DNA of 64,000 nucleotides, taken from NCBI GenBank assembly GCA_035761985.1, contig DASTQB010000206.1:14343-78342 (forward strand). The letters are read 5' to 3'. The position numbers and the translations under genes are program-made. The notes under the pieces are model-generated. The model made no database searches. It saw only the letters and a program-made list of their open reading frames with translations, and was not told where the DNA came from. This document shows positions 20,337 through 59,292 of this stretch, in pieces. Within the stretch, counting starts at the first letter, position 1; each line of letters starts with the position of its first letter. This DNA comes from Pyrinomonadaceae bacterium (lineage in GTDB: Bacteria > Acidobacteriota > Blastocatellia > Pyrinomonadales > Pyrinomonadaceae).

Positions 20337-22757
20337 ATGGATAGTCTTAGAAGCGACGTCCAGTACGCACTCAGGAGCCTCACGAAGCGTCCCGGTTTCA
20401 CTCTCATCGCCGTCATCACTCTCGCTCTCGGCATCGGCGCCAACACCGCGATCTTCAGCGTCATCCATGCACTCCTACTGAAACCACTGCATTTCCCTGA
20501 ACTCGATCGCGTCGTTGCGATCTGGGATGAAATGCCCACCCGCGACATCAAGCACAATGAAGTGACCGTCGCAAACTATCTCGACTGGCAGTCGCAGAGC
20601 CAGTCGTACGAACACCTCGCGCTCCGTCGCTGGTGGAGTGCAAATCTCACCGGCAACGATTCGCCCGAACGCATCCAGGGATTTCTCGTCACTGCAAACT
20701 TCTTCGACGCCGTCGGCATCAAGCCGGTCATGGGCCGCAACTTCACTGCGGAAGAAAACCAACCCGGCAAAGACGCAGTCGCGATCCTCACTCACACTCT
20801 CTGGCAAAGACGTTTCGGCGGCGATCCAAACATCATCGGCAAAACGATCACCGTAAACAGCATCGCGCGCACAGTGATCGGCGTGATGCCCGAGCGTTTC
20901 AACTATCCGAATGGCTCGGAACTCTATGCGCCACTCCCGATGACGCCCGAGTTGATGCGAAGCCGCGGCAATCATAGTTACTACGTCATCGGCCGCATGA
21001 AGCCCGGCGTTTCGGTCGAGAGTGCGCAGGCGGAAATCGACAGCATTACCGCACGACTTCAGCAGCAGTATCCGGAAACCAACGCGGGCTGGGGCGCGCG
21101 AGTTTATCCAATCGTCGCAGACACCATTCAAAACTATGACACGGCCTTGTGGGTGATTATGGCCGCAGTCGGGTTCGTGCTTTTGATCGCGTGTGCAAAC
21201 GTGGCGAACCTGATGCTTGCGCGAGCGAGTGGACGGCAGAAAGAGATCGCTTTGCGAGCTGCGCTCGGTGCGAGTCGTTGGCGGATCGTGCGGCAGTTGC
21301 TGACCGAAAGCGTGATCGTCGGTTTGGCCGGCGGAGTGATCGGAATTCTTATCGGCTTCTGGGGCGTCGACGCGTTGCGCGCAACAAATCCGGGTGAGGC
21401 GGCGAAGTTTGTCGAGGGCTGGAATCAACTCGGAATCAACGTGCCTGTGCTCGCCTTCACGTTTGCGCTCTCGATCTTCAGTGGCATCGTGTTTGGACTG
21501 TTGCCCGCGCTGCAAGTCTCGAGACCGAATCTCAACGACTCTTTAAAAGAAGGATCGCGCCAGACCGCAGGCAGTTCGCACCGGATGCGCAGTTCGCTCG
21601 TAGTTTTCGAAGTAGCGGTGTCGCTCGTGCTTCTTGTAGGCGCGGGATTGCTGGCTCGCAGTTTCCTCTCATTGTTGAGAACGGATCCGGGTTTTGATCC
21701 CGAGAACGTGCTCACGATGAACCTCGTTTTGCCGGGAGCGAAGTACAGGGACGAACCAGCGCGCGCCGCGTTCTACCAGGACCTGGTCCAACGCGTGAAG
21801 ACAACGCCGGGCGTGCAGTCAGCGGGGTTCGTCAACTACATCCCGCTCAGCGGCAGCAACTCTTCCAACTCGTATCTGGTTGAAGGTGAGCCCGAGCCGG
21901 CACCGGGCAACGAGTACGACGGGCGTTATCGCGTCAGCACTCCCGACTATTTCCAGACGATGGGCATTTCGATCCTGCGTGGTCGAGGTTTCACTGAGCA
22001 GGACAAAGCAGGTGCGCCGCGCGTCGTCATCGTAAACGAAACACTCGCGCGCAAGCACTGGCCGGGCCAGGAGGCGATCGGGAAACGCATTCGCTTCGAT
22101 GGACCACTCGATCAGAACCCGTGGATGGAGATCGTCGGTGTAGTGAACGACGTGAAGCACGAACTCGATCTCGCAGTCACACCCGAATACTACCTGCCGC
22201 ATGCACAGGATCCATGGAGCGCGATGGTGCTGGTGGCAAGGACGACAGTCGATCCGGCTTCGCTTGCGGGTTCGCTCCGGCAGCACGTGTGGGCCATTGA
22301 CAAGGACCAGCCAGTATACGACGTGAAGACGATGCACGAAGTGCGATCGATTTCGGTAGTGCTGTATTCGTTCTCATCGGTGATGCTTGGAATCTTCGCG
22401 AGCATCGCCCTCTTGCTGGCGTCGATTGGAATTTACGGCGTGATGGCGTTTGCCGTGACGCAGCGTACGCAGGAGATCGGGATACGCATGGCGCTTGGTG
22501 CGCGGGCGCTCGACGTTTTGAAGCTGGTGGTCACGCACGGGATGAAGCTTGCGCTGATCGGGATCGCGATCGGGTTGGCGGGTTCGTGGGCGTTGACTCG
22601 TTTTATCAAAGGACTGCTGGTGGGCGTGGAGGCGACTGACGCGTTGACCTTCAGCGTGGTGTCGCTGTGTTTGCTGGTGGCTGCGTTTATCGCGTGCTAT
22701 CTGCCGGCGCGACGGGCGACGAAAGTCGATCCGCTCGTGGCATTGAGATACGAATAG
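20337..22757 (+). CDS. ADOP-type duplicated MacB/FtsX-like ABC permease, paralog 1
   Basis: 806 aa from ATG 20337 (AAGGGA upstream). N-term [41 protein letters not shown]. FtsX block 1 [44 protein letters not shown]. Block 2 [26 protein letters not shown]-term [16 protein letters not shown]. The track start 20190 reads through the MITE and is rejected. Confidence 0.9.
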
Positions 22758-22792
22758 GGCCTATAGGTCATAAAGGTCCTATAGGACCTATT
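22753..22792. repeat. Family A 9-bp-periodic repeat (4 units) with perfect palindrome AGGTCCTATAGGACCT
   Basis: aatagggcc tataggtca taaaggtcc tataggacc tatt. The first unit includes the TAG stop at 22755-22757. Confidence 0.8.
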
Positions 22793-22800
22793 AAGGATTC

Positions 22801-25215
22801 ATGGATTCGCTGATCAAAGACATCCGTTATGGCGCTCGCATGCTGATCAAGAAGCCCGGCTTCGCGATCATTGCTGTGCTGACGCTTGCTCTCGGGATCG
22901 CTGCAACCACGGCCACGTTCACCGTCGTCGACGCCGTGTTGTTGCGGAAGCTGCCGGTCGCCGATCCCGATCGCGTGGTCGTCATTCACAATCAGCTTCC
23001 GAAGCTCAATCTTCCACGCAGTCCAGTTTCCGGTCCGCATTACCTCGATTACAGCCGCCAGACCGACGCGTTCCAGTCAACCGCCGCTTTTGCAACTCGC
23101 AACTTCAATCTTACCGGCGTCACTTCGCCTGAGCGTTTGCAGGCGGGCCGCGTGACGGCGAGCTTCTTCCCGATGCTCGGCATTGGTCCAACTGCCGGCC
23201 GCTTCTTCACTCCCGAAGAAGATCAATTCGGGAACGAACGTGTCGCGGTGCTGAGTACGCGCTTGTGGAAACGGCTCTACAGTTCCGACACGTCCGCCTT
23301 CAACAAGACGCTCCAGCTCAACGGCGATCATTATCAAATCGTAGGCGTCGCGCCTGAGTCGATCGAAGAGATCTATCCGAACGTTGAACTGTGGATTCCG
23401 ATGGCTTTCTCGCCGCGCGAGCTTTCGCCGGAACGCCGCAACAGCCTCGCCTACATTATGATCGCGCGTCTGCAGAATGGCACGACCATTGAGCGTGCGC
23501 AGGCGATCATGAGCGGCGTCGCGAAGAACAGTTCCGGCTCGGATCCCGACATCTTCAACATCGAAGTCCGTTCGCTTGCAGATTCGTACGTGAGCGAAGT
23601 GCGGCAGCCGCTGTTCGTACTGCTGTGCGCCGTCATTGCCGTCCTGTTGATCTCGTGCGCGAACGTAGCAAACCTCCTGCTCGCGCGTGCGACTGTGCGC
23701 GGTCACGAGATCGCCGTTCGTTCAGCTCTGGGCGCCGGCCGGAGCCGTATCGTTCGTCAACTTCTGACTGAAAGTCTTCTGATCGCACTGCTCGGCGGCG
23801 CGATTGGAATGCTGCTCGCCGTGTGGGGCACAAAGGCTCTGCTTGCGCTTGCGCCCAGCACCCTCCCGCGTCTCAGCGCGGTTCAAGTCGATCTCAGAAT
23901 TCTTTTACTGAGCTTTGGTGCGTCATTGGTTTGCGGCGTGATCTTCGGCTTGGTCCCCGCGTTAACTGCTTCAAAGACCAATCTCGTCAGTTCGCTCAAA
24001 GAATCCGAACGAACCGATTCAGGTGGTGGCACGCGCCACTGGCTGCGGAGAACATTCGTCGTTGCGGAAGTCGCGATCGCACTCGTGCTCCTGTTTTCAG
24101 CGGGCCTGCTCGTCAGGAGTTTCGGAAAGCTGCTCGACGTGAAGCCCGGGTTTGATCCGACAAACGTGCTCACGGTGCGGCTGTCTCTGCCCGGGGCTCA
24201 GTACGACAAAGCTACCAAAGTCGCTACGTTCTACGACGACGTGCTGGCGCGCGTCTCTGCTTTGCCCGGCGTGGTCCATGCAGGCGCGGCGTTTCAAACT
24301 CCGTTTACGCCCGGCGCCGACAATTCGACGTTTTCAATTCGTGGACGGCAGGCGAACGCAGGCGATCCGCCGCCACATGCAGACTACGCGTTTGTATCTG
24401 CAAATTACTTCAAGACGATCGGGCTGCCGATTCTCAAGGGCCGCGACTTCGAACCCTCCGACATGCGCGCGGGCAATTTCTTCGCGCCCAACTCGGTCGC
24501 CATTGTCGACGAGGAACTCGCAAACCGGTACTGGCCAAACGGCGATGCAATCGGCGGCGGGATAAGCTGGAGCAGTGAAGGCCCATGGGCCACGATCGTC
24601 GGCATCAGCAAGACGGCACAGTTCAAAGACCTCACCGAGCAATCGAAGGGCACGTTCTATCTTCCTGCGTACATCTCGAGTTCGACACTGGTAGTCCGCA
24701 CTTCCGGAGATCCGCGACAGCTCGCGGGTGCGATACGCGAGCAGGTGCTCGCAGTCGATCCGAACCAACCTGTTTACGACGTCAAGACAATCGAAGAGCG
24801 AATCGCAGTAACGCTCGAGACGCGGCGGTTTGCAGTCGTGCTGCTGGGAATATTCGGAACGCTTGGTTTGGTGCTCGCGGCGATCGGTTTGTACGGCGTT
24901 CTTGCGTTCGCGGTGTCGCAACGCACACGTGAGATTGGCATTCACATGGCCCTCGGAGCGCGGGCACGCGACGTGTTGTTCATGGTGATCAAGCAGGGAA
25001 TGTCGCTGGTGCTTGTTGGCGTGGCGATCGGCGTCGCGGGCGCGTACGCGGTTACGCGCGCGATTCGGAGTTTGTTGTTTGAAGTTGGCGCGACGGATCC
25101 GCTGACGTTTGTGGCGGTGTTGCTGCTGCTTTTGTTTGTTGGGTTTGTGGCTTGTTACGTGCCCGCGAGGCGGGCGACGAAAGTCGATCCGCTCGAGGCA
25201 TTGAGATACGAATAG
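22801..25215 (+). CDS. ADOP-type duplicated permease, paralog 2
   Basis: 804 aa. [41 protein letters not shown]; [44 protein letters not shown]; [25 protein letters not shown]; C-term [16 protein letters not shown]. Confidence 0.9.
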
Positions 25216-25263
25216 GTCGATTAATAGGTCGAATAGGACCTATAGGACCTATAGGACCTATAT
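25211..25263. repeat. Family A 9-bp-periodic repeat array
   Basis: aataggtcg attaataggtcg aataggacc tataggacc tataggacc tatat. Starts on the TAG stop at 25213-25215. Confidence 0.8.
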
Positions 25264-25275
25264 CAGAAGGGGATT

Positions 25276-27792
25276 ATGGATACGCTGTTCAAAGATCTAC
25301 GCTACGGTTTACGCGGTCTGTGGAAACGCAAGGGGTTTGCCGCGATCGCGGTGCTTACGCTCGCGCTCGGCATTGGCGCCAACACCGCCATTTTCACGCT
25401 TGTCAACGCAGTGATGCTGAAGACGCTGCCGGTCGAGAAGCCGGAAGAGCTCGTGCTCTTCAGCGACACGACGAGTGAAGGAACGTCTCTTCTCGATGGT
25501 CCAAGATCAGGCCAGTGGGTGCGTTTCTCCTACGCCTCTTACGAATACTTCCGGAATCACAATCAGTCGTTTCAGGACATCGCCGCGACTCGCAGCGGCA
25601 CCGCTCGTCTCAGCGTGCGACGAACTGATGCCGAGGCGAAGGCCGCCGCGCGTGCAACGGGACATCTCGTTACCGGAAATTATTTCTCAGTGATGGGAGT
25701 GCGTGCGCAGCGCGGTCGCGTGCTCACGCCCGAAGACGATCGCGAAAACGCTCAGCCCGCGGCTGTGATCAGTCATCGCTACTGGGCCAACGAACTCAAC
25801 AGCGATCCAACAGCAATCGGCAAGACGTTCATCATCAACGGCACAAACTTCACTGTCGTCGGCATCACGCCGCCCGAGTTCTTCGGCGAGCGCGTTCGTC
25901 GCCCGCCCGATTTCTGGATGCCGCTCTCGTTCCAGCCGCAGATCGAGTTGCGCGAGTCGTTTCTCAAAGAGCAACACGCGTACTGGCTCATGCTCATGGG
26001 CCGGCTCAAACCCGGCGTGACCCTGGACCAGGCACAGGCCAGCACAAACCTCGCCCTGCGGCAGTTCCTGACCGAACAGGCAGGCAGCCAGCTCACCGAA
26101 GAACGCCAGAGAGGTATTCAAAACAGTTACGCGACGCTTGTCGAAGGCAAAGGCGGTATCTCCGGACTTCGCACTTTCTACTCGAAACCACTGCACATGC
26201 TGATGGCCATCGTCGGCATGGTGTTGTTGATTGCTTGCGCAAACGTCGGAAGCCTGTTGCTTTCGCGGGCCGCTGCGCGCAAGGCTGAAATCTCTTTGCG
26301 CATGGCGCTCGGCGCGACACGCTGGCGGATCGTTCGCCAACTCCTGACCGAGAGCATGTTGCTCGCAGTGATCGGCGGCGCGCTCGGCGTGTTGTTGGCC
26401 CAGTGGGGAGTGTACGTGCTCGTCGGTCTGGTCGCACAAGGCTCTCCGCTCGATACGCGACCGGACATTGGCGTGCTGGCGTTCACCGCAGGCGTATCGA
26501 TCCTTGCCGGCCTGTTGTTTGGTCTCATTCCCGCCCTGCAAGCGAGCCGCGCGAATCTTTCGTCCACGATGAAAGAGAAGAGCCGGACGGGAAGCCGCTT
26601 CCTGCGGCTGAGCCCCTCGTCGATGATGGTCGTATTGCAGGTCGGACTCTCGATGGTCCTGCTCACAGGCGCCGGTCTCTTCGGCCGCAGTCTCATGAAC
26701 CTGCAGAACGAAGATCTCGGTTTCGATCGAAACAACATGCTGCTGGTCGGTATCGATCCGCGTCTCGCCGGATACAAGCCCACTGACCTTTCGGCTCTCT
26801 ATCAACAGGTGATCGAACGTCTGTCAACGGTCCCGCACGTCAAAAACGTGTCGATGGCAACGTACGCGCCGATGAGCGGCACGCGACGAAGCAGCAGTAT
26901 TCAGATCCCGGGTTTCACTCCCGAGCCTGGCCAGGAGCTTGCAGTCGAAGACATCTTAACTGGACCAAAATACGCTGAGACGCTCGGCATGCCCGTGTTG
27001 CGCGGTCGCGAGATCGACATGCGCGACACCGTTTCGGCACCGCGCGTTGCAGTGGTCAACGCGACTTTCGCCGAGCGCTACTTCAAGGACCAGAATCCGA
27101 TCGGGCGCACGTTTACGTTCGACGACGAGACTGACGATGGTGCTCCACTCGAGATCGTCGGCGTTGTCGCCGACATCAAGTCGGACGATGCGCGTGGAAA
27201 ACCGGAGGCGGTGGTCTATCGCCCGATACTTCAAATTCAGGACCAGGCGGCGTACTCAGTAACTCTTCACCTGCGCACGCTCAGCGATCCTACGTCGCTC
27301 GGTTCCCAGGTGCGGCAGATGCTCAACCAGATCGACGACAAGATGCCGGTGTACGGCGTCACGTCGATGGACGAACAACTGCGCCAGAACCTGAACGAGG
27401 AGCGGTTGGTCGCGCAACTCGTCAGTTTCTTCGGCGCGCTCGCGTTGATACTCGCGTGCATCGGTTTGTACGGCGTGATGGCCCATGGCGTTGCACGTCG
27501 CACGAATGAGATTGGCATACGCATGGCGCTCGGCGCGCGTGGTGGAAACATCGCGTGGATGATTTTGCGGGAGACGTTGTTGCTCGTGCTTGCGGGTTTG
27601 GTGATTGGAGTGCCGGCGGCGCTTCTCGGAGCGCGACTGGTGTCGACACAGCTTTTTGGAATGAGTCCGACGGATCCGTTGACGTTGATTGGCGCGGCAG
27701 TGGTTTTGGCTGTGGTTGCGTTGCTGGCGGGCTACGTGCCCGCGCGCCGCGCGACGAAGATCAATCCGCTCGTCGCGCTCAGGTATGAATAG
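25276..27792 (+). CDS. ADOP-type duplicated permease, paralog 3 (long first periplasmic domain subtype)
   Basis: 838 aa. [41 protein letters not shown]; [44 protein letters not shown]; [25 protein letters not shown]; C-term [16 protein letters not shown]. Confidence 0.9.
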
Positions 27793-27887
27793 GTCCTATA
27801 GGACGAATAGGACCAATAACACGAATAGGGCTATAGGACGGATAGCTATAGGTCCTATCGGTCCTATAGGTCTTATCGGTCCTATAA
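27788..27887. repeat. Family A 9-bp-periodic repeat array (about 11 units, two inverted halves)
   Basis: aataggtcc tataggacg aataggacc aataacacg aatagggc tataggacg gatagc tataggtcc tatcggtcc tataggtct tatcggtcc tataagga. Starts on the TAG stop at 27790-27792; four further in-frame stops follow. Confidence 0.8.
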
Positions 27888-27893
27888 GGAGCT

Positions 27894-30392: not shown

Positions 30393-30400
30393 GAAATCCG

Positions 30401-50520: not shown

Positions 50521-50558
50521 TAGATCCTATAGGTCCTATATGACATATAGGACCTATT
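50521..50558. repeat. Family A repeat with a perfect 13-bp-stem hairpin
   Basis: ataggtcctatat gac atataggacctat (50529-50557). Preceded by a single family B unit ccgcggatc at 50505-50513. Confidence 0.8.
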
Positions 50559-50577
50559 ACGGATTAAGGAGTGAGTG

Positions 50578-53010
50578 ATGACGACATTGCTGGCTGATGT
50601 TCGTTTCGGCATACGGATGCTGCTGAAGAGCCCGATGATGACGTTCATCGCGCTGCTCGCGCTCATGCTCGGTATCGGTGCAAACACCGCGATCTTCAGC
50701 GTCGTCAACGGCGTGCTGCTGCGATCGTTTCCTTACACCGACGCCGAACAACTCGTGCTCGTGTGGGAGAAGCGACAGGGCGGCCGCACGGATCAGAACG
50801 TGATCAACCTCGGTAACTTCTCCGACTGGAAAGAGCAGAACCAGGTCTTCAGCGACATGGCCGTCTTCTTCGATCGCACGTTCAACCTCACGAGCGACGG
50901 CGAGCCCGAGGAAGTGCCCGGACAACTCGGCACCACGAATCTTTTCTCCGTCCTCGGCACCAACGCGATCATGGGCCGCACATTTGCGGAAAACGATGGC
51001 GCCGCAGATCAGCCGCTCGTCATCGTGATCAGTCACGGCCTCTGGCAGCGACGTTTCGGCGCGGATCCAAACATCATCGGCCGCAAGATCACACTCAGCG
51101 AAGAACCCGCCACGATCATCGGCGTCATGCCTGCGAATTTCGGCTGGCACATTCAAAGAGGAACGCAGGCCACGAAACCCGCCGACATCTGGATCCCCTG
51201 GCAGATCACAAACCAGATGAGACAACGGCGCGGCCGTTTCGCGTCTGCTGTCGCGCGCATGAAACCCGGCGTCACGAGAGAGCAGGCGCAACGTGAAATG
51301 GACACGATCGGCGTTCGCCTGGCCCAGCAGTATCCGGAGTTCAACACAAACTGGGGCATCAACGTCGTTCCGTTGCGCACACAGTTCACCGGTCAAATCA
51401 GGCGACCGCTATTGATTCTTCTGGGAGCTGTCGGTTTCGTGCTGCTGATCGCATGTGCAAACGTTGCGAACCTTTTGCTCGCGCGTGCGAGCGCGAGACG
51501 CAAGGAAATTGCGGTTCGCGCAGGACTCGGCGCGAGTCGCTGGCGTATTGCGCGGCAGTTGCTAACTGAGAGCGTGCTGCTTTCGCTGATCGGTGGCGTG
51601 CTTGGCGTGCTCGTCGCCTGGTGGGGAACGAAAGCGCTCGTCGGATTGAGTCCACCGGCATTGATGGACCTCAGGCAAGTGGGCGTCAGTTTGCCCGTGC
51701 TTGGTTTTACGTTTGGCCTGTCGTTGCTCACCGGGATCATCTTCGGACTCGTTCCCGCGCTCGTAGCGACGCGCTTCGATCTTCACGATTCACTCAAAGA
51801 TGGCGGCAAAGGCGTTGGCGGCGGCGCGGGTAGTCATCGTGTGAGAAATCTTTTCGTGGTGACGCAGGTCGCACTCGCGCTCGTATTGCTCGTCGGCGCC
51901 GGCTTGCTGATGAGGAGTTTCAGTCGTTTGCAGTCAGTTGATCCGGGTTTCAAACAAGACAACCTGCTGACGATGCGCGTGAGTTTGCCTGTCGGTAAAT
52001 ACGAGACCGACCAGAAGCGCCTCGACTTCTTCAAACGCGCAATGGATCAGATGAAAACGATTCCCGGTGTGGAATCCGTGGGCGCGGTCAACACTCCGCC
52101 GTTCACGGGTCTTTATTCAGGGACGACTGTTGACGTCGATGGTGTGAAGTTGCCGCCGGATCGGGAGTTGAAGACCGGCATCGTGGTCACTGACGTCAAC
52201 TATTTTCAGACGATGCAGATTCCGTTAAGGCAGGGCCGGCTTTACACCGAGCAGGAAGCGTCGGAGATGCGTCATGTGGTGCTTGTGAACGAGACGTTTG
52301 TTCGCAAGAACCTCAACGGTCAAAACCCGCTCGGCCGGAAACTCACGATCTACATGAAACAGGAGAACGTGCCGACAGAGATCATCGGCGTCGTTGCGGA
52401 TCACAAGCATCTCGGACTCGACGTCGAGATCGAGCCGGTGGCTTACTGGCCGCATCCTGAGCTGGTCTATCCGGGCATGACGTTGATGTTGCGCACGCGA
52501 GGAGATGCGGGCGCTGTCGGTCCGGCTGCGCGCAACGTGATTCGTTCGCTCGATCCGCTGCAACCGATCGGCGAAGTCACCACGATGGAGAAATTGCTCG
52601 CAACGTCGGTTGCGAGATCGCGTTTTATTGCATCGCTGTTGACGGTCTTTTCGTTTGTTGCGCTCGTAATGGCGGCGGTCGGGATCTACGGCGTCATGTC
52701 GTACACCGTTCTGCAACGCACGCATGAGATCGGTGTACGAATGGCGCTCGGCGCGCAGCGTTTTGACGTGCTCAAGCTCGTCGTGAAGAAGGGAATCGTG
52801 CTCGGGCTGATCGGGATTGCTGCCGGACTCGCGGCGTCGTTTTACCTGACGCGGCTGATCTCGACGTTGCTGTTTGAAGTTACTGCGACTGATGCGGTGA
52901 CGTTCAGTGCTGTGTCGGTTGGGTTGTTCCTGGTGACGTTGATCGCGTGTTACGTGCCTGCTCGCAGGGCTACACGCGTAGATCCACTCAAAGCCCTCAG
53001 GTACGAATAG
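50578..53010 (+). CDS. ADOP-type duplicated permease, paralog 13
   Basis: 810 aa from ATG 50578 (AAGGAG 6 nt upstream; the track start GTG 50575 is one codon earlier). [41 protein letters not shown]; [44 protein letters not shown]; GIYGVMSYTVLQRTHEIGVRMALGA; C-term ARRATRVDPLKALRYE. Confidence 0.9.
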   Translation: MTTLLADVRFGIRMLLKSPMMTFIALLALMLGIGANTAIFSVVNGVLLRSFPYTDAEQLVLVWEKRQGGRTDQNVINLGNFSDWKEQNQVFSDMAVFFDRTFNLTSDGEPEEVPGQLGTTNLFSVLGTNAIMGRTFAENDGAADQPLVIVISHGLWQRRFGADPNIIGRKITLSEEPATIIGVMPANFGWHIQRGTQATKPADIWIPWQITNQMRQRRGRFASAVARMKPGVTREQAQREMDTIGVRLAQQYPEFNTNWGINVVPLRTQFTGQIRRPLLILLGAVGFVLLIACANVANLLLARASARRKEIAVRAGLGASRWRIARQLLTESVLLSLIGGVLGVLVAWWGTKALVGLSPPALMDLRQVGVSLPVLGFTFGLSLLTGIIFGLVPALVATRFDLHDSLKDGGKGVGGGAGSHRVRNLFVVTQVALALVLLVGAGLLMRSFSRLQSVDPGFKQDNLLTMRVSLPVGKYETDQKRLDFFKRAMDQMKTIPGVESVGAVNTPPFTGLYSGTTVDVDGVKLPPDRELKTGIVVTDVNYFQTMQIPLRQGRLYTEQEASEMRHVVLVNETFVRKNLNGQNPLGRKLTIYMKQENVPTEIIGVVADHKHLGLDVEIEPVAYWPHPELVYPGMTLMLRTRGDAGAVGPAARNVIRSLDPLQPIGEVTTMEKLLATSVARSRFIASLLTVFSFVALVMAAVGIYGVMSYTVLQRTHEIGVRMALGAQRFDVLKLVVKKGIVLGLIGIAAGLAASFYLTRLISTLLFEVTATDAVTFSAVSVGLFLVTLIACYVPARRATRVDPLKALRYE

Positions 53011-53050
53011 CACGGATAAACGCGGATCTTTAACACGGATTTACGCAGAT
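53011..53050. repeat. Family B repeat (four units)
   Basis: cacggat aaacgcggat ctttaacacggat ttacgcagat. Confidence 0.75.
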
Positions 53051-53060
53051 AGGAGATTTT

Positions 53061-54125
53061 ATGAAGTTGCTCAGACAGTCAATTAAGCCTCGCGTCTTAT
53101 GGTTGCTTGCGTCGTTGGCGGCTTTGTTGATCTCTGCGCCGCAGCCGTGGCTGTACGGGCAGAAGCCTCACGATGAAAAGCAGAGCGTTACGAGATGGAT
53201 CAACCAGGACGATGATCACAAGCGCAGTCTGGAGATACGAGGGAAGGCTGAGTTCAACGACGATTACACAGACGTTGTAAGTGTCACCGAAGGTGGTTTT
53301 GTGATCGTTGAGGAGCAGCGCGGGCGAGAGTCGCAGCGTTACGAAGTGCGGCGAGATATGGGCGGGCAGTTGACGCGCGTCTTTTACGTGAACGGCGCCG
53401 CGGCTCAGATGGACCAGACGGCGAAGCGATGGGTCGCCGAGCTTGTGCTCAATGCAGTGCGGCAGGGCGGGATTGATACCGAGAAGCGCGTGACCCGGAT
53501 TCTTGCGCAACGCGGCGTTCCGGGCGTGCTTGCTGAAATCGAGCAGATCAAGGGCGACTGGGCCAAGCGTCGTTACTACGAAACGCTCATCAAGCAGGCA
53601 GACCTCGATGCGAATGCTCTGCGCGACGTGTTGCGACAGGCCGGAGGCGCCATGTCTTCCGATTACGAAAAGTCGCAGTTGCTGATCGGGATCGCGCCGA
53701 TGCTCACGGGCAAAGAGGCCGCCATTCAGCCGTTCTTCGATGCTGTTGCGACGATCAGTTCTGACTACGAACACGGTCGCGTGCTGAAGTCGGTGATGAA
53801 GAAGGAGACTCCGAGTAGTGCAGTGCTCGTGCTCATTGCTGCGTCGAGCAAAAACATGTCGTCTGACTACGAGCGTCGTGGTGTTTTGAGTGCGCTCGTG
53901 AAGACGAAGAACCAGAGTGAAGAAGTTTTGAAACTGTTGCTCGACTCGGCGGCGGCGATGTCGTCTGACTACGAAAAAGCTACGCTGCTCGTCGAGGTGT
54001 CGAACGTCTACACGGGCGACACGCGTTTGAAGAGCGCGTTTTTGAAAGTGGTGGAATCGATCAAGTCTGATTACGAACGCGGGCGGGTGTTGTCGGCGCT
54101 GTTGAAGAATAAACAGATAGGGTAA
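53061..54125 (+). CDS. Secreted/periplasmic protein of unknown function with about six ~35-aa helical 'SSDYE[KR]' repeats
   Basis: 354 aa. AGGAG 6 nt upstream. N-terminal hydrophobic signal-like segment VLWLLASLAALLISAP. Repeats: IKGDWAKRRYYETL, MSSDYEKSQLLIGI, ISSDYEHGRVLKSV, MSSDYERRGVLSAL, MSSDYEKATLLVEV, IKSDYERGRVLSAL. No family assignment possible by eye. Confidence 0.7.
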   Translation: MKLLRQSIKPRVLWLLASLAALLISAPQPWLYGQKPHDEKQSVTRWINQDDDHKRSLEIRGKAEFNDDYTDVVSVTEGGFVIVEEQRGRESQRYEVRRDMGGQLTRVFYVNGAAAQMDQTAKRWVAELVLNAVRQGGIDTEKRVTRILAQRGVPGVLAEIEQIKGDWAKRRYYETLIKQADLDANALRDVLRQAGGAMSSDYEKSQLLIGIAPMLTGKEAAIQPFFDAVATISSDYEHGRVLKSVMKKETPSSAVLVLIAASSKNMSSDYERRGVLSALVKTKNQSEEVLKLLLDSAAAMSSDYEKATLLVEVSNVYTGDTRLKSAFLKVVESIKSDYERGRVLSALLKNKQIG

Positions 54126-54166
54126 CCGCGGATTAGGCGGATCTTTCGAAACCGATCGACACGGAT
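54126..54166. repeat. Family B repeat (four units)
   Basis: ccgcggat taggcggat ctttcgaaaccgat cgacacggat. Confidence 0.7.
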
Positions 54167-54174
54167 GAAAACTT

Positions 54175-56637
54175 ATGGACAACTTGATTAAAGACGTGCG
54201 CTATGGCGTGCGGATGTTGACGAAGAATCCCGGTGTCACGCTTGTTGCCGTCGTGACGCTCGCGCTCGGCATTGGTGCAAACACCGCGATCTTCAGTGCT
54301 GTGAATGCATTTCTGATGCGCCCGCTCGCTGTGCCGAATGCGCACGAACTCGTCCGGCCCATGGAGATCACGGAAGACCGCGACATCGCGGACGAGATGT
54401 CGTATCCGGATTTTCTCGACTATCGCAACCAGGCAACGTCGTTCGTCGCCCTCTCTGCCGAAGACATGATCCAGGCCGCGATCAGTTCCGAAAACCAGAA
54501 CGACGTGATCTGGGGACAGGTGGTTTCCGCCAACTACTTCGACATGCTCCAGGTGCAACCGATCATGGGCCGTGCGTTTCACCCGGACGAAGACAAGGCG
54601 GTCGGCGCCGGTGCCGTCGTCGTGTTGGGCTACAGCTTCTGGCAACGACGCATGGGCAGCGATCCGAACATCGTCGGCAAGACGGTCTCTCTCAACAATC
54701 GCGCGTACGAAGTGATCGGCGTTGCTCCTGATTATTTTCATGGGTCGAAGTTCGCGCTGTCGATGGACTTCTGGGTGCCGATCTCGATGGCCGAAGACCT
54801 TCGTCGCAATCCAAAACTACTCGCAGATCGTGGCAGCCACTGGATGAACGTTCTGGGCCGGCTCAAGCCGGGTGTTTCAATTGACCAGGCGTCGGCTGAA
54901 CTCGCCGCAATCGCCGCGCGCATGAACCAGGCTTATCCGGACAATCGCGCTAACAGCACCCGCGCGAAGGTGATGGGCGAGGTCGAGGGCCGCTTTGAAG
55001 ACATGGGCGGCGTGTTCCGAAGCGCCGGAGCGATCGCGATGGCGATCGCAGCGTTGATTCTCCTGATCGCGTGCGCAAACGTCGCGAACCTCATGCTCGC
55101 GAGAGCTGCCGCGCGTCGCAAGGAGATCGGCATACGTCTGGCCCTCGGCGCGAATCGTGCGCGCTTGATCCGTCAACTGTTGACCGAAAGTCTTTTACTC
55201 TCAATTGTGGGTGGCGCGCTCGGACTGCTACTCGCTTTCTGGGTCAGCGATCTGATGCAGGGCTTCGTTCCGGTTCTCGAGTACAACATCGTCGACAATT
55301 TCTTTGCACTCGATCACCGCGCGCTCGTGTTCACACTTGTTATCTCGCTCGCCACGGGCCTCGTGTTCGGGCTAGCTCCCGCGTGGCAATCGTCGAATCC
55401 GGACGTTGTGCCTGTGTTGAAAGGCGATCCGGAAGGGGCGCAAAGAGGGAAGCGAAGAGCGTTTGGTTTGCGCAACAGCCTGGTCGTCGCGCAGGTCGCG
55501 CTTTCGCTCGTGGTGCTGGTTTGCGGAGGGCTGTTCATCAAGAGTTTTCGCAAAGCACAGACGATGGATCCGGGTTTCGACAATCCGAAGGGGTTGATCG
55601 TCTCGCTGAGTCCGCAGTTGATCGGTTACGACGACGAGCAGACACGGAATTTTTATCGACAGGTTGTCGAACGTGTTTCGCACGTGCCGGGAGTTGAAGC
55701 TGCCGGCTTCGCGCGAACGCTGCCGCTCGGAGACAGTTCCAACTCGAATGGCCCAATACTCAAAGAAGGCGAGACGCTCGCACGTGGAAGTGCCGGGCGC
55801 GTCATCATGACGAACATTGTTAGTCCCGGCTTCTTCGAGGCGATGCAGATCCCGATCGTCGAGGGTCGAAACTTCGACGATCGAGATCACCTGAAATCAC
55901 AACGCGTGGTGATCGTGAACCAGAGGATGGCCCAGATGCTCTGGCCGGGTGAGAGTGCCGTGGGCAAACGGATCTTTATCGGCGCTGAGAGCCGGGATGC
56001 GCTGGAAGTTGTGGGCGTGGCGAAGCAGGGGAAATATCGAGCGCTCGCCGAGGATCCAAGGCCGTTCTTTTATTACCCTCTGGGCCAGCGACGGCCGAGC
56101 ACGATGGCGCTCGTGATGCGCGCGAATGTCGATCCGGGCAGTCTGGTTGGTGCGATTCGCAGCGAAGTGCAGGCACTCGATCGCCGTGTGCCCGTGTTTG
56201 GCGTTAAGACGATGGACCAGCACAAGACGTATGCGTTGTGGGCGCCGAATATGGCCGCGAGTTTTTCGCTCGCGTTTGGAGTGCTGGCGATCCTGTTGAG
56301 CGCGGTCGGGCTTTACAGCGTGATGGCTTACATCGTTTCGCAGCGCACGCGTGAGGTTGGGATTCGGATGGCGCTGGGCGCGGATCGTGCTGATGTGATG
56401 AAGATGATCACGCAGCAGGGGATGAGGCTTGCGGCTGTCGGGCTTGGGATCGGGTTGGTGTTGTCGCTGGCACTCGCGCAGGTGTTGTCGTCGCTGCTGA
56501 TTGGTGTGAGCGGGTATGACGTGACGACGTTTATCGTCGTGCCGGTGTTGCTGGCCGCGGTTGCGCTGGTGGCGTGTTATCTGCCGGCGCGCCGCGCTAC
56601 AAAGGTCAATCCCCTCGTGGCGCTTCGCTATGAATGA
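54175..56637 (+). CDS. ADOP-type duplicated permease, paralog 14
   Basis: 820 aa. [41 protein letters not shown]; [44 protein letters not shown]; [25 protein letters not shown]; C-term [16 protein letters not shown]. Confidence 0.9.
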
Positions 56638-56643
56638 GTTTTA

Positions 56644-56703
56644 GCCACAGATTTACGCGAATAAACACGGATTGATCTGTGTTCATCTGCGTAGATCCGC
56701 GGC
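56644..56703. repeat. Family B palindromic repeat element
   Basis: gccacagat ttacgcgaat aaacacggat tgatctgtg ttcatctgcg tagatccgcggc. Left-arm units are mirrored as reverse complements in the right arm. Confidence 0.75.
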
Positions 56704-56715
56704 GGAGATTTTTTT

Positions 56716-59217
56716 ATGGATTCGATCATCAAAGACATTCGATATGGCATCCGGAGCCTTCTAAAGCGGCCGGGATTCACCGCGATCGCGGTGCTCACGC
56801 TCGCGCTCGGCATCGGCGCGAATACAGCAATCTTCAGCGCGGTCAACGCGACGTTGATGCGCCCGCTGCCCGTCAGAGATCCCGATCGATTGCTCTTCGT
56901 CTTCAATGGACCAGCAGGCAATGTTTTCTCCTACCCCGACTACACTGCATATCGCGATCACAACACCGTCTTCGACGGCATGCTCGCGTTTGGCGGCATC
57001 ACAGCGAGTCTCAACAGCGACGATCAAACGGATCTCGTAGCCGGTGCAATCGTCTCCGGGAATTTCTTCGACGTGCTCGGCGTGCGCGCACAGCTCGGAC
57101 GCGTCATCACCCCCGACGACGACAAGGTCCCGGGCGCGCATCCGGTCGCCGTCATCAGCCACGGCCTCTGGCAACGTCGCTTCGGCGCCGATCCAAACAT
57201 ACTCGGCCGCCAGCTACTGCTAAACGGACATAACTTCACGATCATCGGCGTGCTTCCCGCCGGTTTCGACGGGCTGCAACTCGGCGTCGTACGCGATCTC
57301 TACGTGCCCATGATGCAGCAGGCCACCATGCGACCGCCGCGCGCCGGATACTCGGGCGAGATGAATCCCGACCTCCTGCAAGTGCGTGGCAATCGCTGGC
57401 TCTTCACCGTCGGCAGGATGAAGCCGGGTGTCACTCCCGAACAGGCGCAAGCCTCGCTCGCACTGATTGCGAAACAACTGGAAGAGGCTTATCCAAAAAT
57501 AAACCGCAACCGCGGTGTTTCCGTTTATGCGTTCAGCGAAAGCGATAATCCTTCGAATCGACAACAACTCTCGTCAGTCGCGCGTCTGCTGATGGCTGTG
57601 GTCGGCATCGTGCTTCTGATCGCATGTGCCAACGTCGCCAACCTCCTGCTCGCGCGCAGTTCGGCACGTACAAAAGAGATCGCCGTACGTCTCGCGATCG
57701 GCGCAACGCGCTGGCGCGTCGTTCGTCAACTACTTACCGAAGGCATATTGCTCGCAACGATCGGTGGCGGTGCCGGATTGCTGCTCGCATGGTGGGCCAC
57801 GAGATCACTGCGTGCCGCGCCACCTCCACAGGGTTCGCTACTGATCACGCCACAGTTCTCGATCGACACGCGTGTGCTCCTGTTCACGCTTGGATTGTCG
57901 CTCCTCGCCGGCGTGGTCTTCGGACTCGCACCCGCCTTGCGCGCTTCGCGCCCGGCACTGATTCCCGCGTTGAAAGACGACGCCGCAGCGTTCTTCGAAC
58001 GAACTCGAACGTTTGGTCTTCGCAACCTGCTCGTCGTGGTCCAGGTGGCACTTTCAGTCGTGCTGCTTATTGCAGCGGGACTTTTCCTCCGCAGTTTGCA
58101 ACAGGCGCAGACGATCGATCCGGGCTTTGATGCGGAGAAAGTCGTCACGCTCCCGCTCAACATCAATCTTCTTCGTTACACAAAAACGCAGGGCCGTGAA
58201 TTCTACCGGCAGGTCATCGAACGTGTTGAAGCGATTCCCGGAGTCGAATCTGCAAGCCTCGCACGCATCGCTGCGGTCAGCGGCGGTTCATCCGTTCGCA
58301 GTCTATTGATTGAAGGACGCGCCGGTTCCGGAAATCAATTTCGCAGCGATGGGGCAGGTGCGGCTCCGGGAGACAATGAGTCCGTGAGCTCGAATGTCGT
58401 TGGTCCAAAGTACTTTCAGACCATGGGCATCGGGTTGTTGCAGGGTCGCGATTTCAACGCACAGGACGCGGAAAATCATCCGCTCGTCGTGATCGTCAAC
58501 GAAGCATTCGTGCGCGTTCATTTTTCATCGGAAAATCCGGTGGGCAAGCGTTTGAGTTTTGGTGGTCCGGAAGGGCCCTGGCGCGAGATCGTCGGCGTGG
58601 TGCGCACGAGCAAGTACTTCAGTGTCGGCGAAGCGCCGACGCCGGTCGCTTACGTGCCCCTCGCGCAGAACCACGAAACGGGCATGACGCTGCACGTGCG
58701 GACGGCGGTTGATCCTTCGACAGTCGCGGGCGCGATTCGTAACGAAACACAATCGCTCGAAAAGAACCTTCCGCTCGTTCCACCTGAACTCATGAGCGAT
58801 CGTATTAACAATTCGCTTTACGCGGCGCGCATGGGTGCGATCCTGCTGGCGGTGTTTGGTGGCCTGGCGTTGTTGCTGGCGTCAATCGGGTTGTATGGCG
58901 TGATGGCGTTTGCAGTTTCGAGACGCACGCGAGAACTCGGCATACGCGTGGCGCTCGGCGCGAAGCCGCGTGATGTTTTCGGGCTCGTGTTGAGGCAAGG
59001 GATGACGCTGGTGATTGCGGGGTTGTTCGTGGGGTTGGTGGTGGCGGCGATAGTGACGCGATTGCTGGCGAGTTTTCTTTACGGTGTGAGCACGACGGAT
59101 GCGTTGACGTTCACGGCGATTCCGGTGCTGTTGGCGCTTGTGGCTTTGCTCGCGTGTTATTTGCCGGCGCGAAGGGCCACAAAGGTCGAACCGCTCGTGG
59201 CGCTGCGTTATGAATAG
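56716..59217 (+). CDS. ADOP-type duplicated permease, paralog 15
   Basis: 833 aa. [41 protein letters not shown]; [44 protein letters not shown]; [25 protein letters not shown]; C-term [16 protein letters not shown]. Confidence 0.9.
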   Translation: MDSIIKDIRYGIRSLLKRPGFTAIAVLTLALGIGANTAIFSAVNATLMRPLPVRDPDRLLFVFNGPAGNVFSYPDYTAYRDHNTVFDGMLAFGGITASLNSDDQTDLVAGAIVSGNFFDVLGVRAQLGRVITPDDDKVPGAHPVAVISHGLWQRRFGADPNILGRQLLLNGHNFTIIGVLPAGFDGLQLGVVRDLYVPMMQQATMRPPRAGYSGEMNPDLLQVRGNRWLFTVGRMKPGVTPEQAQASLALIAKQLEEAYPKINRNRGVSVYAFSESDNPSNRQQLSSVARLLMAVVGIVLLIACANVANLLLARSSARTKEIAVRLAIGATRWRVVRQLLTEGILLATIGGGAGLLLAWWATRSLRAAPPPQGSLLITPQFSIDTRVLLFTLGLSLLAGVVFGLAPALRASRPALIPALKDDAAAFFERTRTFGLRNLLVVVQVALSVVLLIAAGLFLRSLQQAQTIDPGFDAEKVVTLPLNINLLRYTKTQGREFYRQVIERVEAIPGVESASLARIAAVSGGSSVRSLLIEGRAGSGNQFRSDGAGAAPGDNESVSSNVVGPKYFQTMGIGLLQGRDFNAQDAENHPLVVIVNEAFVRVHFSSENPVGKRLSFGGPEGPWREIVGVVRTSKYFSVGEAPTPVAYVPLAQNHETGMTLHVRTAVDPSTVAGAIRNETQSLEKNLPLVPPELMSDRINNSLYAARMGAILLAVFGGLALLLASIGLYGVMAFAVSRRTRELGIRVALGAKPRDVFGLVLRQGMTLVIAGLFVGLVVAAIVTRLLASFLYGVSTTDALTFTAIPVLLALVALLACYLPARRATKVEPLVALRYE

Positions 59218-59292
59218 GACCAATAGGACTAATAGGACTAATAGGACCTATTCATACGTCCTATTCGTCCTATACGACCTATTGGTCCTATT
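59213..59292. repeat. Family A 9-bp-periodic repeat array folding as an ~80-nt imperfect hairpin
   Basis: aataggacc aataggact aataggact aataggacc tattcatac gtcctattc gtcctatac gacctattg gtcctatt. Outer 15 bp aataggaccaatagg / cctattggtcctatt are perfectly complementary. Four in-frame TAGs from 59215. Confidence 0.85.

What the first reader, a model, noticed from the sequence alone, without database searches (positions are those of the whole stretch)
22753..59292. Family A: 9-bp-periodic ATAGGNCNN micro-repeat arrays form long hairpins in ADOP spacers
Seen: nine loci (2315, 22753, 25211, 27788, 30295, 32847, 37753, 50521, 59213) carry 3-11 tandem 9-bp units. The consensus is (A/T)ATAGGACC / TATAGGTCC. 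A run of ATAGGAC-type units is typically followed by a run of ATAGGTC-type units, so each array is self-complementary. Examples are a perfect 13-bp stem at 50529-50557, a 16-bp perfect palindrome AGGTCCTATAGGACCT at 22776-22791, and 15-bp perfect outer arms at 59213/59278. The core TAGG(A/T)CCTA is itself dyad-symmetric. None is followed by a T-tract. One copy (2315) lies outside the permease array, so the family is dispersed. I do not recognise it as a named repeat family.
Basis: seen in the sequence. Interest (0 to 1): 0.65.

Follow-up and report, generated by a model that had tools for sequence, protein, structure and literature searches.

The report
Dispersed hairpin arrays of 9-bp repeats
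Short arrays of a 9-base repeat (core ATAGGNC) fold into hairpins and start exactly at the stop codons of neighbouring transporter genes. The same motif occurs in many bacterial phyla and is built into the genes of an uncharacterised four-helix-bundle protein family, which points to an undescribed repeat-plus-protein system.

Summary
Nine loci carry 9-bp units with an invariant core, ATAGGNC (60 two-unit matches against 0.01 expected). All nine fold better than shuffled sequence (z -3.5 to -11.9). Eight lie between co-directional ADOP permease paralogues and one lies after a histidine kinase. In seven, the upstream gene's TAG stop is the TAG of the first unit. The arrays end 2-15 nt before the next ribosome-binding site, and none is followed by a T-tract.

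The paralogues are only 34-49% identical, so the arrays are not neutral relics. At the orthologous kinase spacer in 80 relatives the content turns over between empty, this family, three other short-repeat families and GTAG REPINs.

The same array type occurs in more than ten phyla and matches no Rfam family or paper I could find. The one recurrent gene partner is the four-helix-bundle-suffix protein (TIGR04258, S23p/Avd-like). Its genes carry the motif in the 5' leader, often after the stop, and inside codons ~120-129, where the synonymous sites never vary.

Best reading: REP-like stem-loop elements at gene junctions that grow by slippage and are probably recognised by that protein family. Function and partner are inferred, not shown. 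No RNA data exist.

The parts
2313..2401 (.). Family A array after the hybrid histidine kinase gene (642-2318). The first unit contains the gene's TAG stop (2316-2318). Units are partly degenerate (ATACGAC, ATAAGAC).
   Evidence: (dG -36.2, z -6.1). The closest orthologue, L234, has a different hairpin element at the same place.
22752..22793 (.). Family A array between ADOP genes 20190-22757 and 22801-25215. The TAG stop is at 22755-22757, inside the first core. The 16-bp palindrome lies at 22774-22789.
   Evidence: (z -4.6)
25210..25263 (.). Family A array. The stop of gene 22801-25215 is in the first core. Three perfect ATAGGACCT units lie at 25233-25262.
   Evidence: (z -3.7)
27787..27886 (.). 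Family A array. The stop of gene 25276-27792 is in the first core. The array ends directly at the AAGGAG ribosome-binding site of the next gene.
   Evidence: (dG -43.3, z -4.9)
30294..30393 (.). Family A array, the longest forward run (10 cores). It shows an 18-bp higher-order repeat (3.4 copies, 90% match), a sign of slippage in place. The stop of gene 27894-30299 is in the first core.
   Evidence: (z -6.0)
32847..32879 (.). Short Family A hairpin (12-bp stem), 14 nt after the TAG stop of gene 30401-32833.
   Evidence: (z -6.2)
37752..37856 (.). Family A array. The stop of gene 35295-37757 is in the first core.
   Evidence: (dG -44.5, z -6.6)
50517..50560 (.). Family A hairpin with a 13-bp perfect stem, 18 nt after the TAA stop of gene 48061-50502. 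It begins with a GAATAG-like unit.
   Evidence: (z -3.5)
59212..59295 (.). Family A array with the best pairing in the window (16-bp outer stem). The stop of gene 56716-59217 is in the first core, and GAAUAGG pairs with CCUAUUC at the base of the stem.
   Evidence: (dG -47.5, z -11.9)
20190..61758 (+). Host context: 16 tandem, co-directional ADOP-family duplicated permease genes (TIGR03434), only 34-49% identical to each other. No promoter-like or terminator-like signal stands out in the spacers.

Best explanation
The nine loci are copies of a dispersed, REP-like element made of 9-bp units. Each unit has an invariant core ATAGGNC (dyad TAGGNCCTA) plus two variable bases. A run of units is followed by a run of their complements, so the transcript, or single-stranded DNA, folds into a long imperfect stem-loop.

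SHOWN:
- The arrays are real and fold significantly.
- They begin in register with the upstream gene's TAG stop and end just before the next gene's ribosome-binding site.
- They lack T-tracts.
- They show local 9- and 18-bp duplications.
- Comparable elements are gained and lost quickly at an orthologous site in relatives.
- The same core and period occur in more than ten phyla.
- The core is embedded, with frozen synonymous sites, in the genes of the four-helix-bundle-suffix protein family (TIGR04258; S23p/Avd-like) and in their 5' and 3' flanks.

INFERRED:
1. The arrays act as stem-loops in the long permease transcript. At each gene junction they would block 3' exonucleases, give processing or pause sites, and partly uncouple the expression of successive paralogues.
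2. They grow and shrink by slippage in steps of 9 bp. This keeps reading frames intact where they overlap gene ends.
3. They are recognised unit by unit by a four-helix-bundle-suffix protein encoded elsewhere in the genome. That protein would regulate itself through the copies in its own gene. In this genome the motif has spread into the permease spacers.

Whether recognition is of RNA or of DNA is open.
For: Reality and structure.

Stop-codon register:
- Seven of nine window arrays have the stop TAG as bases 2-4 of the first core.
- Among the 16 ADOP genes, 7 of 8 TAG-ending genes have an array against 1 of 8 others (my Fisher test, p about 0.01).
- Across all loci, 30 of 130 long ORF ends facing an array stop at exactly that position, and only 17 read further in. 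Chance would give 1:2.

Not a relic: the paralogues are 34-49% identical, yet the cores are perfect.

Slippage: an 18-bp higher-order repeat at 30292-30353, and neighbouring units that share their variable bases.

Turnover: in 80 orthologues of the kinase (76-88% identity) the spacer is empty or holds Family A (L255), CACGGAT, CTCTGCG or CACAAAG arrays, or GTAG REPINs. L283 and L286 differ by a compensatory change in both arms.

Spread: more than 118 stretches in many phyla, many of them near-perfect hairpins of 40-60 bp with complementary variable bases.

Protein link:
- TIGR04258 genes are the only recurrent specific neighbouring gene family, at 6 of 118 loci in 5 phyla; the one larger neighbour cluster (9 loci) is a generic ABC-type ATPase family.
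- Every further homologue fetched by protein similarity has the motif inside the gene, and most also have it in a flank.
- The base rate elsewhere in the same lineage is 1 array in about 440 kb, against 13 arrays in about 21 kb around these genes.
- In 12 genes from 4 phyla the motif Arg is AGG in 10/10 (about 5% at other conserved Arg columns). The three motif Tyr codons are TAT in 35/35 (11/34 at other conserved Tyr columns).
- Divergent paralogues carry other 9-bp families: CAGAATCCT at L081 copy 2, GTCGGACNN at L326, TTCCTAGNN in Prevotella nigrescens.
Against: - No transcript data exist for this organism or any carrier I was allowed to query, so no RNA role is shown.
- Mismatches in stems of known orientation show no excess of G.U over A.C (6 against 11). 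This gives no support to selection at the RNA level.
- In the window the variable bases of the two arms are mostly not complementary. The hairpins are therefore weaker than in other phyla.
- The window holds no four-helix-bundle gene. The source metagenome has related genes at similar depth, which proves nothing about the same genome.
- The protein link is an association.
- In Blastocatellia and Chthoniobacterales these genes sit at fixed syntenic places, so they do not look mobile.
Confidence: 0.5

Rival explanations
1. Neutral microsatellite. The conserved gene end ...TAC GAA TAG G resembles one unit. It seeded slippage, and the arrays are functionless by-products.
For: Arrays abut GAATAG|G. 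There are 18-bp higher-order repeats, and neighbouring units share their variable bases. Unit number varies from locus to locus.
Against: - Slippage gives direct repeats, not a following run of complements.
- The same 7-nt core occurs in more than ten phyla and next to unrelated genes. None of the 118 loci has an ADOP gene.
- The core is held by frozen synonymous sites in TIGR04258 genes.
- One GAATAG-ending paralogue (53010) has no array.
- The copy after the kinase follows AAATAG, not the ADOP gene end.
Confidence: 0.1
2. Non-autonomous mobile element (MITE or REP/REPIN-like), moved as a unit by a transposase such as a RAYT or another Y1 HUH enzyme.
For: Presence/absence differences at the orthologous kinase spacer, where true GTAG REPINs also insert. 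The family is dispersed and lies at gene ends. Co-directional and convergent contexts (44 and 16) outnumber divergent ones (8) in a crude gene call. REP families do behave this way (PMC3733652).
Against: - Copies differ in unit number, variable bases and loop, so they are not copies of one master.
- No terminal inverted repeats or target duplications are seen when filled and empty sites are compared.
- There is no GTAG or CGTC tag.
- No transposase recurs among neighbours of the 118 loci.
- Hairpin-type arrays are nearly absent from 2.9 million viral contigs: 5 hits.
Confidence: 0.15
3. DNA-level operator or roadblock arrays. An oligomeric protein coats the 9-bp units on double-stranded DNA and blocks or tunes read-through between genes. 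KfrA of plasmid RA3 works this way on five 9-bp repeats, three direct and two inverted, at its own promoter.
For: - There is precedent for an alpha-helical autoregulator on direct plus inverted 9-bp repeats (PMC7783346).
- The motif sits just upstream of TIGR04258 start codons.
- There is no G.U excess.
- In the coding copy the motif sequence and spacing are conserved, not the pairing.
Against: A 9-bp spacing is off the helical repeat. The arrays sit at stop codons, not at promoters, in the window, and the promoter scan finds nothing there. Long, perfectly complementary arms in other phyla are not needed for an operator. This is a variant of the best explanation rather than a true opposite.
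Confidence: 0.15
4. Ordinary factor-independent transcription terminators of each permease gene.
For: Strong stem-loops directly after stop codons. Several long copies in other phyla have a central G+C-rich stem-loop between convergent genes (L015, L029, L103).
Against: No array on the coding strand is followed by a T-tract. The terminator scan finds 17 sites against 19.5 expected, and none of them is a + strand array. The stems are A/T-rich with internal loops. The next gene follows within 2-15 nt with its own ribosome-binding site and no promoter-like site.
Confidence: 0.07
5. Fragments of collagen-like (Gly-X-Ile) coding repeats.
For: ATA GGN CNN reads Ile-Gly-X. In viral contigs, including giant-virus bins, the same pattern recurs at distances that are multiples of 9 over kilobases. 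I infer collagen-like genes there from that spacing, without having translated them.
Against: In the window the arrays are 33-105 nt long and lie between ORFs. They have an in-frame TAG in every unit of the upstream frame, and the frame shifts between the two arms. They are inverted repeats.
Confidence: 0.01

Closest known systems
REP / BIME / REPIN elements with their RAYT transposases
   Same: Short, dispersed, extragenic palindromes at the 3' ends of genes and between co-directional or convergent genes. They turn over fast between strains, and copies flank the gene of a dedicated protein (PMC3733652, PMC6006769). In REPs the stem-loop stabilises upstream mRNA; that last point is from my own knowledge.
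   Different: There is no GTAG or CGTC tag. The element is built from tandem 9-bp units of variable number, not from one fixed 20-40-bp palindrome. The same core is shared across phyla, whereas REPs are species-specific. The associated protein is a small helical bundle with no HUH/Y1 motif, and its genes sit at fixed syntenic places.
23S rRNA intervening sequences carrying an S23p ORF (Coxiella, Leptospira)
   Same: A gene of the same superfamily (PF05635) is bracketed by sequences that pair into a stem. In Coxiella that stem is cut by RNase III (PMC4990558).
   Different: Those elements lie inside 23S rRNA helices. No 9-bp periodicity is reported for them. Here the genes are ordinary chromosomal genes and carry the extra TIGR04258 suffix domain.
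KfrA of plasmid RA3 and its operator of five 9-bp repeats
   Same: An alpha-helical oligomeric autoregulator binds tandem 9-bp units, three direct and two inverted, at its own gene. At least two adjacent units are needed (PMC7783346).
   Different: The protein (HTH plus coiled coil) and the motif (TGTATTGTA) are unrelated. That operator is a single site, not a dispersed family.
TRAP and HutP attenuation proteins (from my own knowledge)
   Same: Ring-shaped oligomers read regularly spaced UAG/GAG triplets in RNA and so decide whether a neighbouring hairpin forms.
   Different: Their spacing is 5-7 nt, not 9. The proteins are unrelated. Nothing of the kind is shown here.
Avd of diversity-generating retroelements
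   Same: Same fold family as PF05635 (PMC10053308). Foldseek's best meaningful hit for the model is the S23-family protein 2rld. From my own knowledge, Avd binds nucleic acid and a reverse transcriptase.
   Different: No reverse transcriptase, template repeat or variable repeat lies next to these genes. There is no PADLOC hit.
Uptake sequences (DUS/USS) arranged as inverted pairs in terminators (from my own knowledge)
   Same: A 9-12-nt word, rare in coding sequence, is over-represented after genes, often as inverted pairs that form hairpins.
   Different: Uptake sequences are species-specific and are single pairs, not tandem arrays. Nothing links them to the phyla seen here.

Membership tests
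REP/REPIN (RAYT-associated) | Dispersed extragenic imperfect palindrome at gene 3' ends | tested here: met
   Nine intergenic hairpins in the window. Contexts in other genomes are 44 co-directional, 16 convergent and 8 divergent, from a crude gene call.
REP/REPIN (RAYT-associated) | Conserved GTAG (or CGTC) tetranucleotide tag at one end of the palindrome | tested here: not met
   Units are (N)ATAGGNC and there is no such tag. True GTAG REPINs are present separately at 47905-48060 and in L243/L268.
REP/REPIN (RAYT-associated) | Copies flank a Y1 (HUH) transposase gene in the same genome | tested here: inconclusive
   No transposase recurs among neighbours of the 118 loci. Whole genomes could not be searched.
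MITE | Fixed-length element with terminal inverted repeats and target-site duplication | tested here: not met
   Length runs from 33 to 105 bp with variable unit number. No duplication is seen when filled and empty orthologous spacers are compared.
Intrinsic terminator | G+C-rich stem-loop followed by a U-tract | tested here: not met
   No T-tract follows any array on the + strand. The scan flags no + strand array and shows no excess over shuffles.
Microsatellite / VNTR | Head-to-tail units of constant period | tested here: met
   Period 9 in TRF. 388 of 458 core spacings in other genomes are 9.
Microsatellite / VNTR | Copy-number differences at one orthologous locus between strains | tested here: inconclusive
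   Metagenome contigs of relatives break inside the arrays. At the kinase spacer whole elements differ, not unit counts.
Any Rfam family | Match to a curated covariance model | tested here: not met
   No hit at gathering score or at E<=1 in the window. Strong copies from other genomes give only sub-threshold generic microRNA-hairpin hits.
Collagen-like coding repeat | Long open frame reading Gly-X-Y through the repeat | tested here: not met
   The arrays lie between ORFs, the upstream frame meets TAG in each unit, and the arms are in different frames.
Motif of TIGR04258 (four-helix-bundle-suffix) genes (proposed here) | Same core (ATAGGNC/GNCCTAT) and 9-nt spacing as the conserved element in and around those genes | tested here: met
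Motif of TIGR04258 (four-helix-bundle-suffix) genes (proposed here) | A TIGR04258 gene with the NRSYxxYxxY motif in the same genome | not testable with these tools
   There is none in the 64-kb window. Related gene fragments occur in the source metagenome at similar depth. Only the whole genome would settle it.
23S rRNA intervening sequence | Inserted in a 23S rRNA helix and excised by RNase III | tested here: not met
   There is no rRNA in the window and the arrays lie between protein genes. RNase III cleavage itself could not be tested.

The most novel reading that the evidence does not exclude
Four-helix-bundle-suffix proteins (TIGR04258; over 8000 homologues in each of two searches; function unknown) and arrays of 9-nt units form a widespread, undescribed protein-plus-repeat system. 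The oligomeric protein would read the units in register, control its own gene through the copies in its leader and in codons ~120-129, and act on satellite arrays elsewhere. Different protein subfamilies would be matched to different unit sequences: ATAGGNC, CAGAATCCT, GTCGGACNN, TTCCTAGNN. The window would be a genome in which the ATAGGNC arrays have spread through a 16-gene permease cluster.
Probability: 0.35. Interest if true: 0.85.

Novelty: new variant of a known kind. Interest (0 to 1): 0.68.

Why it matters
Short repeats of this kind litter the intergenic DNA of soil and gut phyla: Acidobacteriota, Planctomycetota, Verrucomicrobiota, Bacteroidota and others. From my own experience they are routinely mistranslated into low-complexity 'hypothetical proteins'. 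I found no Rfam family and no paper that covers them.

Three results make them tractable. First, one such family has an invariant 7-nt core across phyla. Second, it starts in register with stop codons. Third, it is wired into the genes of a large protein family of unknown function.

These results give a concrete, cheap hypothesis for the function of TIGR04258/PF05635-like proteins outside retroelements. They give a candidate regulator of gene junctions in long operons. They also give a rule for masking these arrays in annotation. If the protein link holds, this would be a second example, after REP/RAYT, of a repeat family with a dedicated protein, and one that works without a nuclease fold.

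Tried and rejected
- Rfam at gathering score and at E<=1 gave nothing specific.
- Literature searches by sequence strings, by '9-bp/nonamer repeats', by phylum plus hairpin terms, and by names of the protein family found no description. The REP/TIRYT and HUH papers describe other elements.
- The DRT10 reverse transcriptase makes 9-nt tandem-repeat DNA. I read that paper as a lead and set it aside: no reverse transcriptase lies nearby, the motif differs, and its 9-nt period is not general even within that system.
- RNA evidence was not obtainable. No RNA run holds the window. The 'Akkermansia' MAG locus matched only environmental runs kept as contigs.
- Laying relatives' contigs on the window to see unit-number variation failed, because contigs break at the arrays.
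- The G.U versus A.C mismatch test gave no RNA signal.
- The preference for the ATAGGAC run coming first looked strong among ungapped hairpins: about 25 forward-first, about 7 reverse-first and 8 ambiguous. A stricter pattern gave only 11 against 8, so I do not rely on it.
- Upstream and internal arrays of the four-helix-bundle genes looked complementary (27/29 in L049). They are almost as similar as direct repeats, because the units are near-palindromic, so I dropped the long-range pairing claim.
- ADOP genes are not a general partner of the arrays: there are none in the 118 loci.
- The protein has no PADLOC hit and no PDB sequence hit. The fold search gave only the S23-family bundle.
- Hairpin-type arrays are almost absent from viral contigs.
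Full report
**1. The observation**

The pattern ATAGGNCNNATAGGNC (up to 1 mismatch) occurs 60 times in the window. Tandem Repeats Finder calls period-9 arrays at every locus, and an 18-bp higher-order repeat at 30292-30353.

Outside the arrays the core is nearly absent: 1 forward and 2 reverse copies on the + strand in 64 kb. Every reading frame of ATAGGNC holds a rare or stop codon (ATA, AGG, TAG), which makes it an 'anti-coding' word. That last point is my inference.

All nine arrays fold better than dinucleotide shuffles, with z from -3.5 to -11.9. The one correction is that the 16-bp palindrome lies at 22774-22789.

In the window the stems are mostly 7-bp core helices separated by 2x2 internal loops, because the variable bases of the two arms rarely match.

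**2. Setting in the window**

Positions 20190-61758 hold 16 tandem, co-directional genes of the ADOP duplicated-permease family (TIGR03434, 951 bits; MacB_PCD plus FtsX domains). They are only 34-49% identical. Any neutral spacer inherited from the duplications would therefore be randomised. The perfect cores must be maintained or recent.

Seven arrays start so that the upstream gene's stop is the TAG of the first unit. Six follow the conserved end ...RYE* = TAY GAA TAG|G, and the kinase copy follows AAA TAG|G. Seven of the 8 TAG-ending permease genes have an array, against 1 of the 8 ending in TAA or TGA (my Fisher test, p about 0.01).

The arrays end 2-15 nt before the next gene's ribosome-binding site. 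None has a T-tract. The scans find no promoter-like site in any array-bearing spacer and no terminator-like site at a + strand array. The spacers without Family A carry another short-repeat family, CACGGAT/CGCGGAT.

**3. Elsewhere**

I expect about 0.3 by chance. The hits span:

- Acidobacteriota (Blastocatellia, Thermoanaerobaculia and others);
- Planctomycetota, Verrucomicrobiota and Lentisphaerota;
- Bacteroidota and Chlorobi;
- delta-proteobacterial groups;
- Armatimonadota, Hydrogenedentes, Cloacimonadota, Aminicenantes and a Daviesbacterium.

Core spacing is 9 in 388 of 458 cases, and most of the rest is 18 or 27.

Forty arrays form ungapped stems of 14-62 bp at 77-100% Watson-Crick pairing. 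Several are perfect, variable bases included (L015, -92 kcal/mol; L037; L118). Some have a central G+C-rich stem-loop (L015, L103).

In a crude gene call, 44 arrays lie between co-directional genes, 16 between convergent genes and 8 between divergent genes. Of 130 long ORF ends facing an array, 30 stop at the TAG of the first core and only 17 read further in. Chance would give 1:2. TAG makes up 59 of the 130 stops.

A different class of hit must be kept apart. In viral contigs the direct pattern recurs at multiples of 9 over kilobases. I read this as collagen-like Gly-X-Ile genes (inference). The hairpin form is almost absent there, with 5 hits.

**4. Turnover**

Eighty metagenome orthologues of the kinase 642-2318 (76-88% identity) keep the downstream Rrf2 promoter-operator but differ wholly in the spacer after the kinase stop. 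The spacer is one of:

- empty;
- a short Family A copy (L255);
- CACGGAT hairpins (L251);
- CTCTGCG/CGCAGAG hairpins (L238, L283, L286);
- CACAAAG/CTTTGTG arrays (L263-265, L295-297, L308);
- GTAG REPINs (L243, L268);
- another palindrome (L234, the closest relative).

L283 and L286 differ by a matched change in both arms (CTCAGCGG..CCGCTGAG against CTCTGCGG..CCGCAGAG). The place behaves like a REP landing site. At least four families share one architecture: a 7-nt core plus a 2-3-nt spacer, in a direct run followed by an inverted run.

**5. The protein link**

I clustered all ORFs within 2.5 kb of the arrays in the 118 loci. That gave one specific recurrent family, at six loci in five phyla; the only larger cluster (nine loci) is a generic ABC-type ATPase family. 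The specific family is the four-helix-bundle-suffix protein (TIGR04258 75-85 bits, TIGR02436; PF05635 below its cut-off).

The gene carries the motif in its sense strand as AAT/GAT AGG TCC TAT nnG nCC TAT nnG nCC TAT, which reads (N/D)RSYxxYxxY. It often has further copies 15-30 nt upstream of the start and directly after its own TAG stop.

Homologues fetched by protein similarity alone show the same. In Blastocatellia there are four syntenic groups (L314, L323/L332, L325/L336, L331). In Chthoniobacterales the gene sits antisense between sucB and lpdA (L338-L342).

Three controls support the link:

- In about 440 kb of the kinase loci, from relatives of the window organism, there is one Family A array. 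In about 21 kb around six of these genes there are 13.
- In the 10.5-kb Chthoniobacterales loci, all but one core (per locus, in L340/L341) lie at the gene.
- In 12 genes from 4 phyla the motif Arg is AGG in 10/10, against about 5% at other conserved Arg columns. The three Tyr codons are TAT in 35/35, against 11/34 elsewhere. Ser is TCC in 10/12.

The motif is therefore selected at the nucleotide level inside a coding sequence.

Divergent members that lack the RSY motif are flanked by other 9-bp families: (CAGAATCCT)n on both sides of L081 copy 2, GTCGGACNN at L326, and TTCCTAGNN after the Prevotella nigrescens gene. L081 copy 1 also lacks the internal RSY motif but is flanked by Family A-like units, so the match between subfamily and unit sequence is not exact.

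The AlphaFold model is all-helical (pLDDT 84). Its best meaningful structural match is the S23-family protein 2rld. There is no PDB sequence hit and no PADLOC hit. The window itself has no such gene.

**6. What it most likely is, and how it works**

Shown: a dispersed, hairpin-forming, fast-evolving repeat family with an invariant core. It is in register with stop codons and is tied to one protein family.

Inferred: in the permease transcript each array folds into a stem whose 5' base holds the last codon and UAG, and whose 3' base abuts the next ribosome-binding site. Such stems can stop 3' exonucleases, give processing or pause sites, and uncouple neighbouring cistrons, as REP elements do (my own knowledge; PMC3733652).

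A period of 9 (three codons) lets arrays that overlap gene ends or lie inside genes change length without frameshifts. That would explain why this period is tolerated.

The co-conservation of motif and protein, and the copies in the protein's own gene, fit a factor that reads the units in register and regulates itself. KfrA on its 9-bp operator is a precedent at the DNA level (PMC7783346). TRAP and HutP are precedents at the RNA level (my own knowledge). The S23p intervening sequences cut by RNase III are a relative in the same protein superfamily (PMC4990558).

I cannot decide between RNA and DNA. The G.U versus A.C test is flat at 6 against 11, and no transcript data could be had.

**7. Rivals**

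- Pure slippage explains the growth of arrays. It does not explain the inverted arms, the cross-phylum core or the frozen codons.
- A transposase-driven element fits the presence/absence pattern. It does not fit the variable build or the lack of ends, tags and transposase neighbours.
- Canonical terminators are excluded by the missing T-tract.
- Collagen-like coding is excluded in the window.

**8. Novelty and verdict**

I found no Rfam family, no paper and no named repeat family for this element. It works like a REP family but fails the REP membership tests on tag and, as far as tested, on transposase. Its unit-built architecture, its cross-phylum core and its link to TIGR04258 genes are new as far as I can tell.

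I file it as a new variant of a known kind. There is a 0.35 chance that it is the visible part of a new repeat-plus-protein system.

Noticed in passing
window 5262-5278, 6634-6650, 10063-10134, 12586-12638, 35300-35329, 40294-40319, 42755-42781, 45391-45419, 53011-53050, 56646-56701: A second short-repeat family with core CACGGAT/CGCGGAT/CACAGAT at about 9-13-nt spacing. It fills the ADOP spacers that lack Family A and also follows other genes. Some copies are hairpins with inverted ATCCGTG/ATCTGTG runs (12586-12638, 56646-56701). The same family occurs in relatives (L251, L281, L305-307) and in a Chthoniobacterales MAG (L096).
   Followed up: partly
window 47905-48060: The spacer after ADOP gene 45418-47904 holds a long inverted repeat built from GCTCCGTAGGAGC palindromes. 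This is a GTAG-tagged REP/REPIN-type element, a different family from the 9-bp arrays.
   Followed up: no
window 2430-2480; L234-L313: The sequence upstream of the Rrf2 gene (TTGACAAAATNNAAATTGTAACTATAATGGTTACAAAA) is almost invariant in 80 relatives. It has a palindrome, TGTAACTATAATGGTTACA, over the -10 box. This is probably the Rrf2 autoregulatory operator. The primary sigma factor gene (3094-4800) follows.
   Followed up: no
L338-L342 (5001-5564) and L018 (1151-1705): In Chthoniobacterales the four-helix-bundle-suffix gene lies antisense between sucB (E2) and lpdA (E3) of the 2-oxoglutarate dehydrogenase operon and overlaps the end of sucB. That is an odd, conserved place for a small gene.
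   Followed up: partly
L081 825-1394 and 6299-6838: One rumen Bacteroidetes contig has two paralogues of the four-helix-bundle-suffix gene (56% identical), each flanked by its own 9-bp repeat family: ATAGGAC-type units for one and (CAGAATCCT)n for the other.
   Followed up: partly
L085 3480-3660 (Tidjanibacter MAG): More than 15 successive 9-bp units change type along the run: TTAGGGAAC, then ATAAGCCCT, then TTGTGACCC. One frame reads Gly-X-Y. Whether this is coding or a composite array is not resolved.
   Followed up: no
L119-L233 (viral contigs), e.g. L120 9628-11866: The direct pattern (ATAGGNCNN)3 recurs at multiples of 9 over kilobases in phage and giant-virus contigs. This is most likely collagen-like Gly-X-Ile genes, and it would confuse any census of the repeat done by pattern alone.
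   Followed up: partly
L336 672-710; L114 7439-7998: Decayed copies of four-helix-bundle-suffix genes. L336 has a 39-codon remnant that still carries the internal motif. L114 has a frameshifted gene.
   Followed up: no
window 53061-54125: A 354-codon ORF with no Pfam match interrupts the run of ADOP paralogues.
   Followed up: no
L234 2330-2434; L323 1230-1340: Other long palindromes recur in these Acidobacteria, for example CTTGGAGTGCGGCGACTTGTC..GACAAGTCACCGCACTCCAAG and GTCAGTACCGGGAGCGGTAGCGACCGGGT with its complement. The lineage carries many distinct hairpin repeat families.
   Followed up: no
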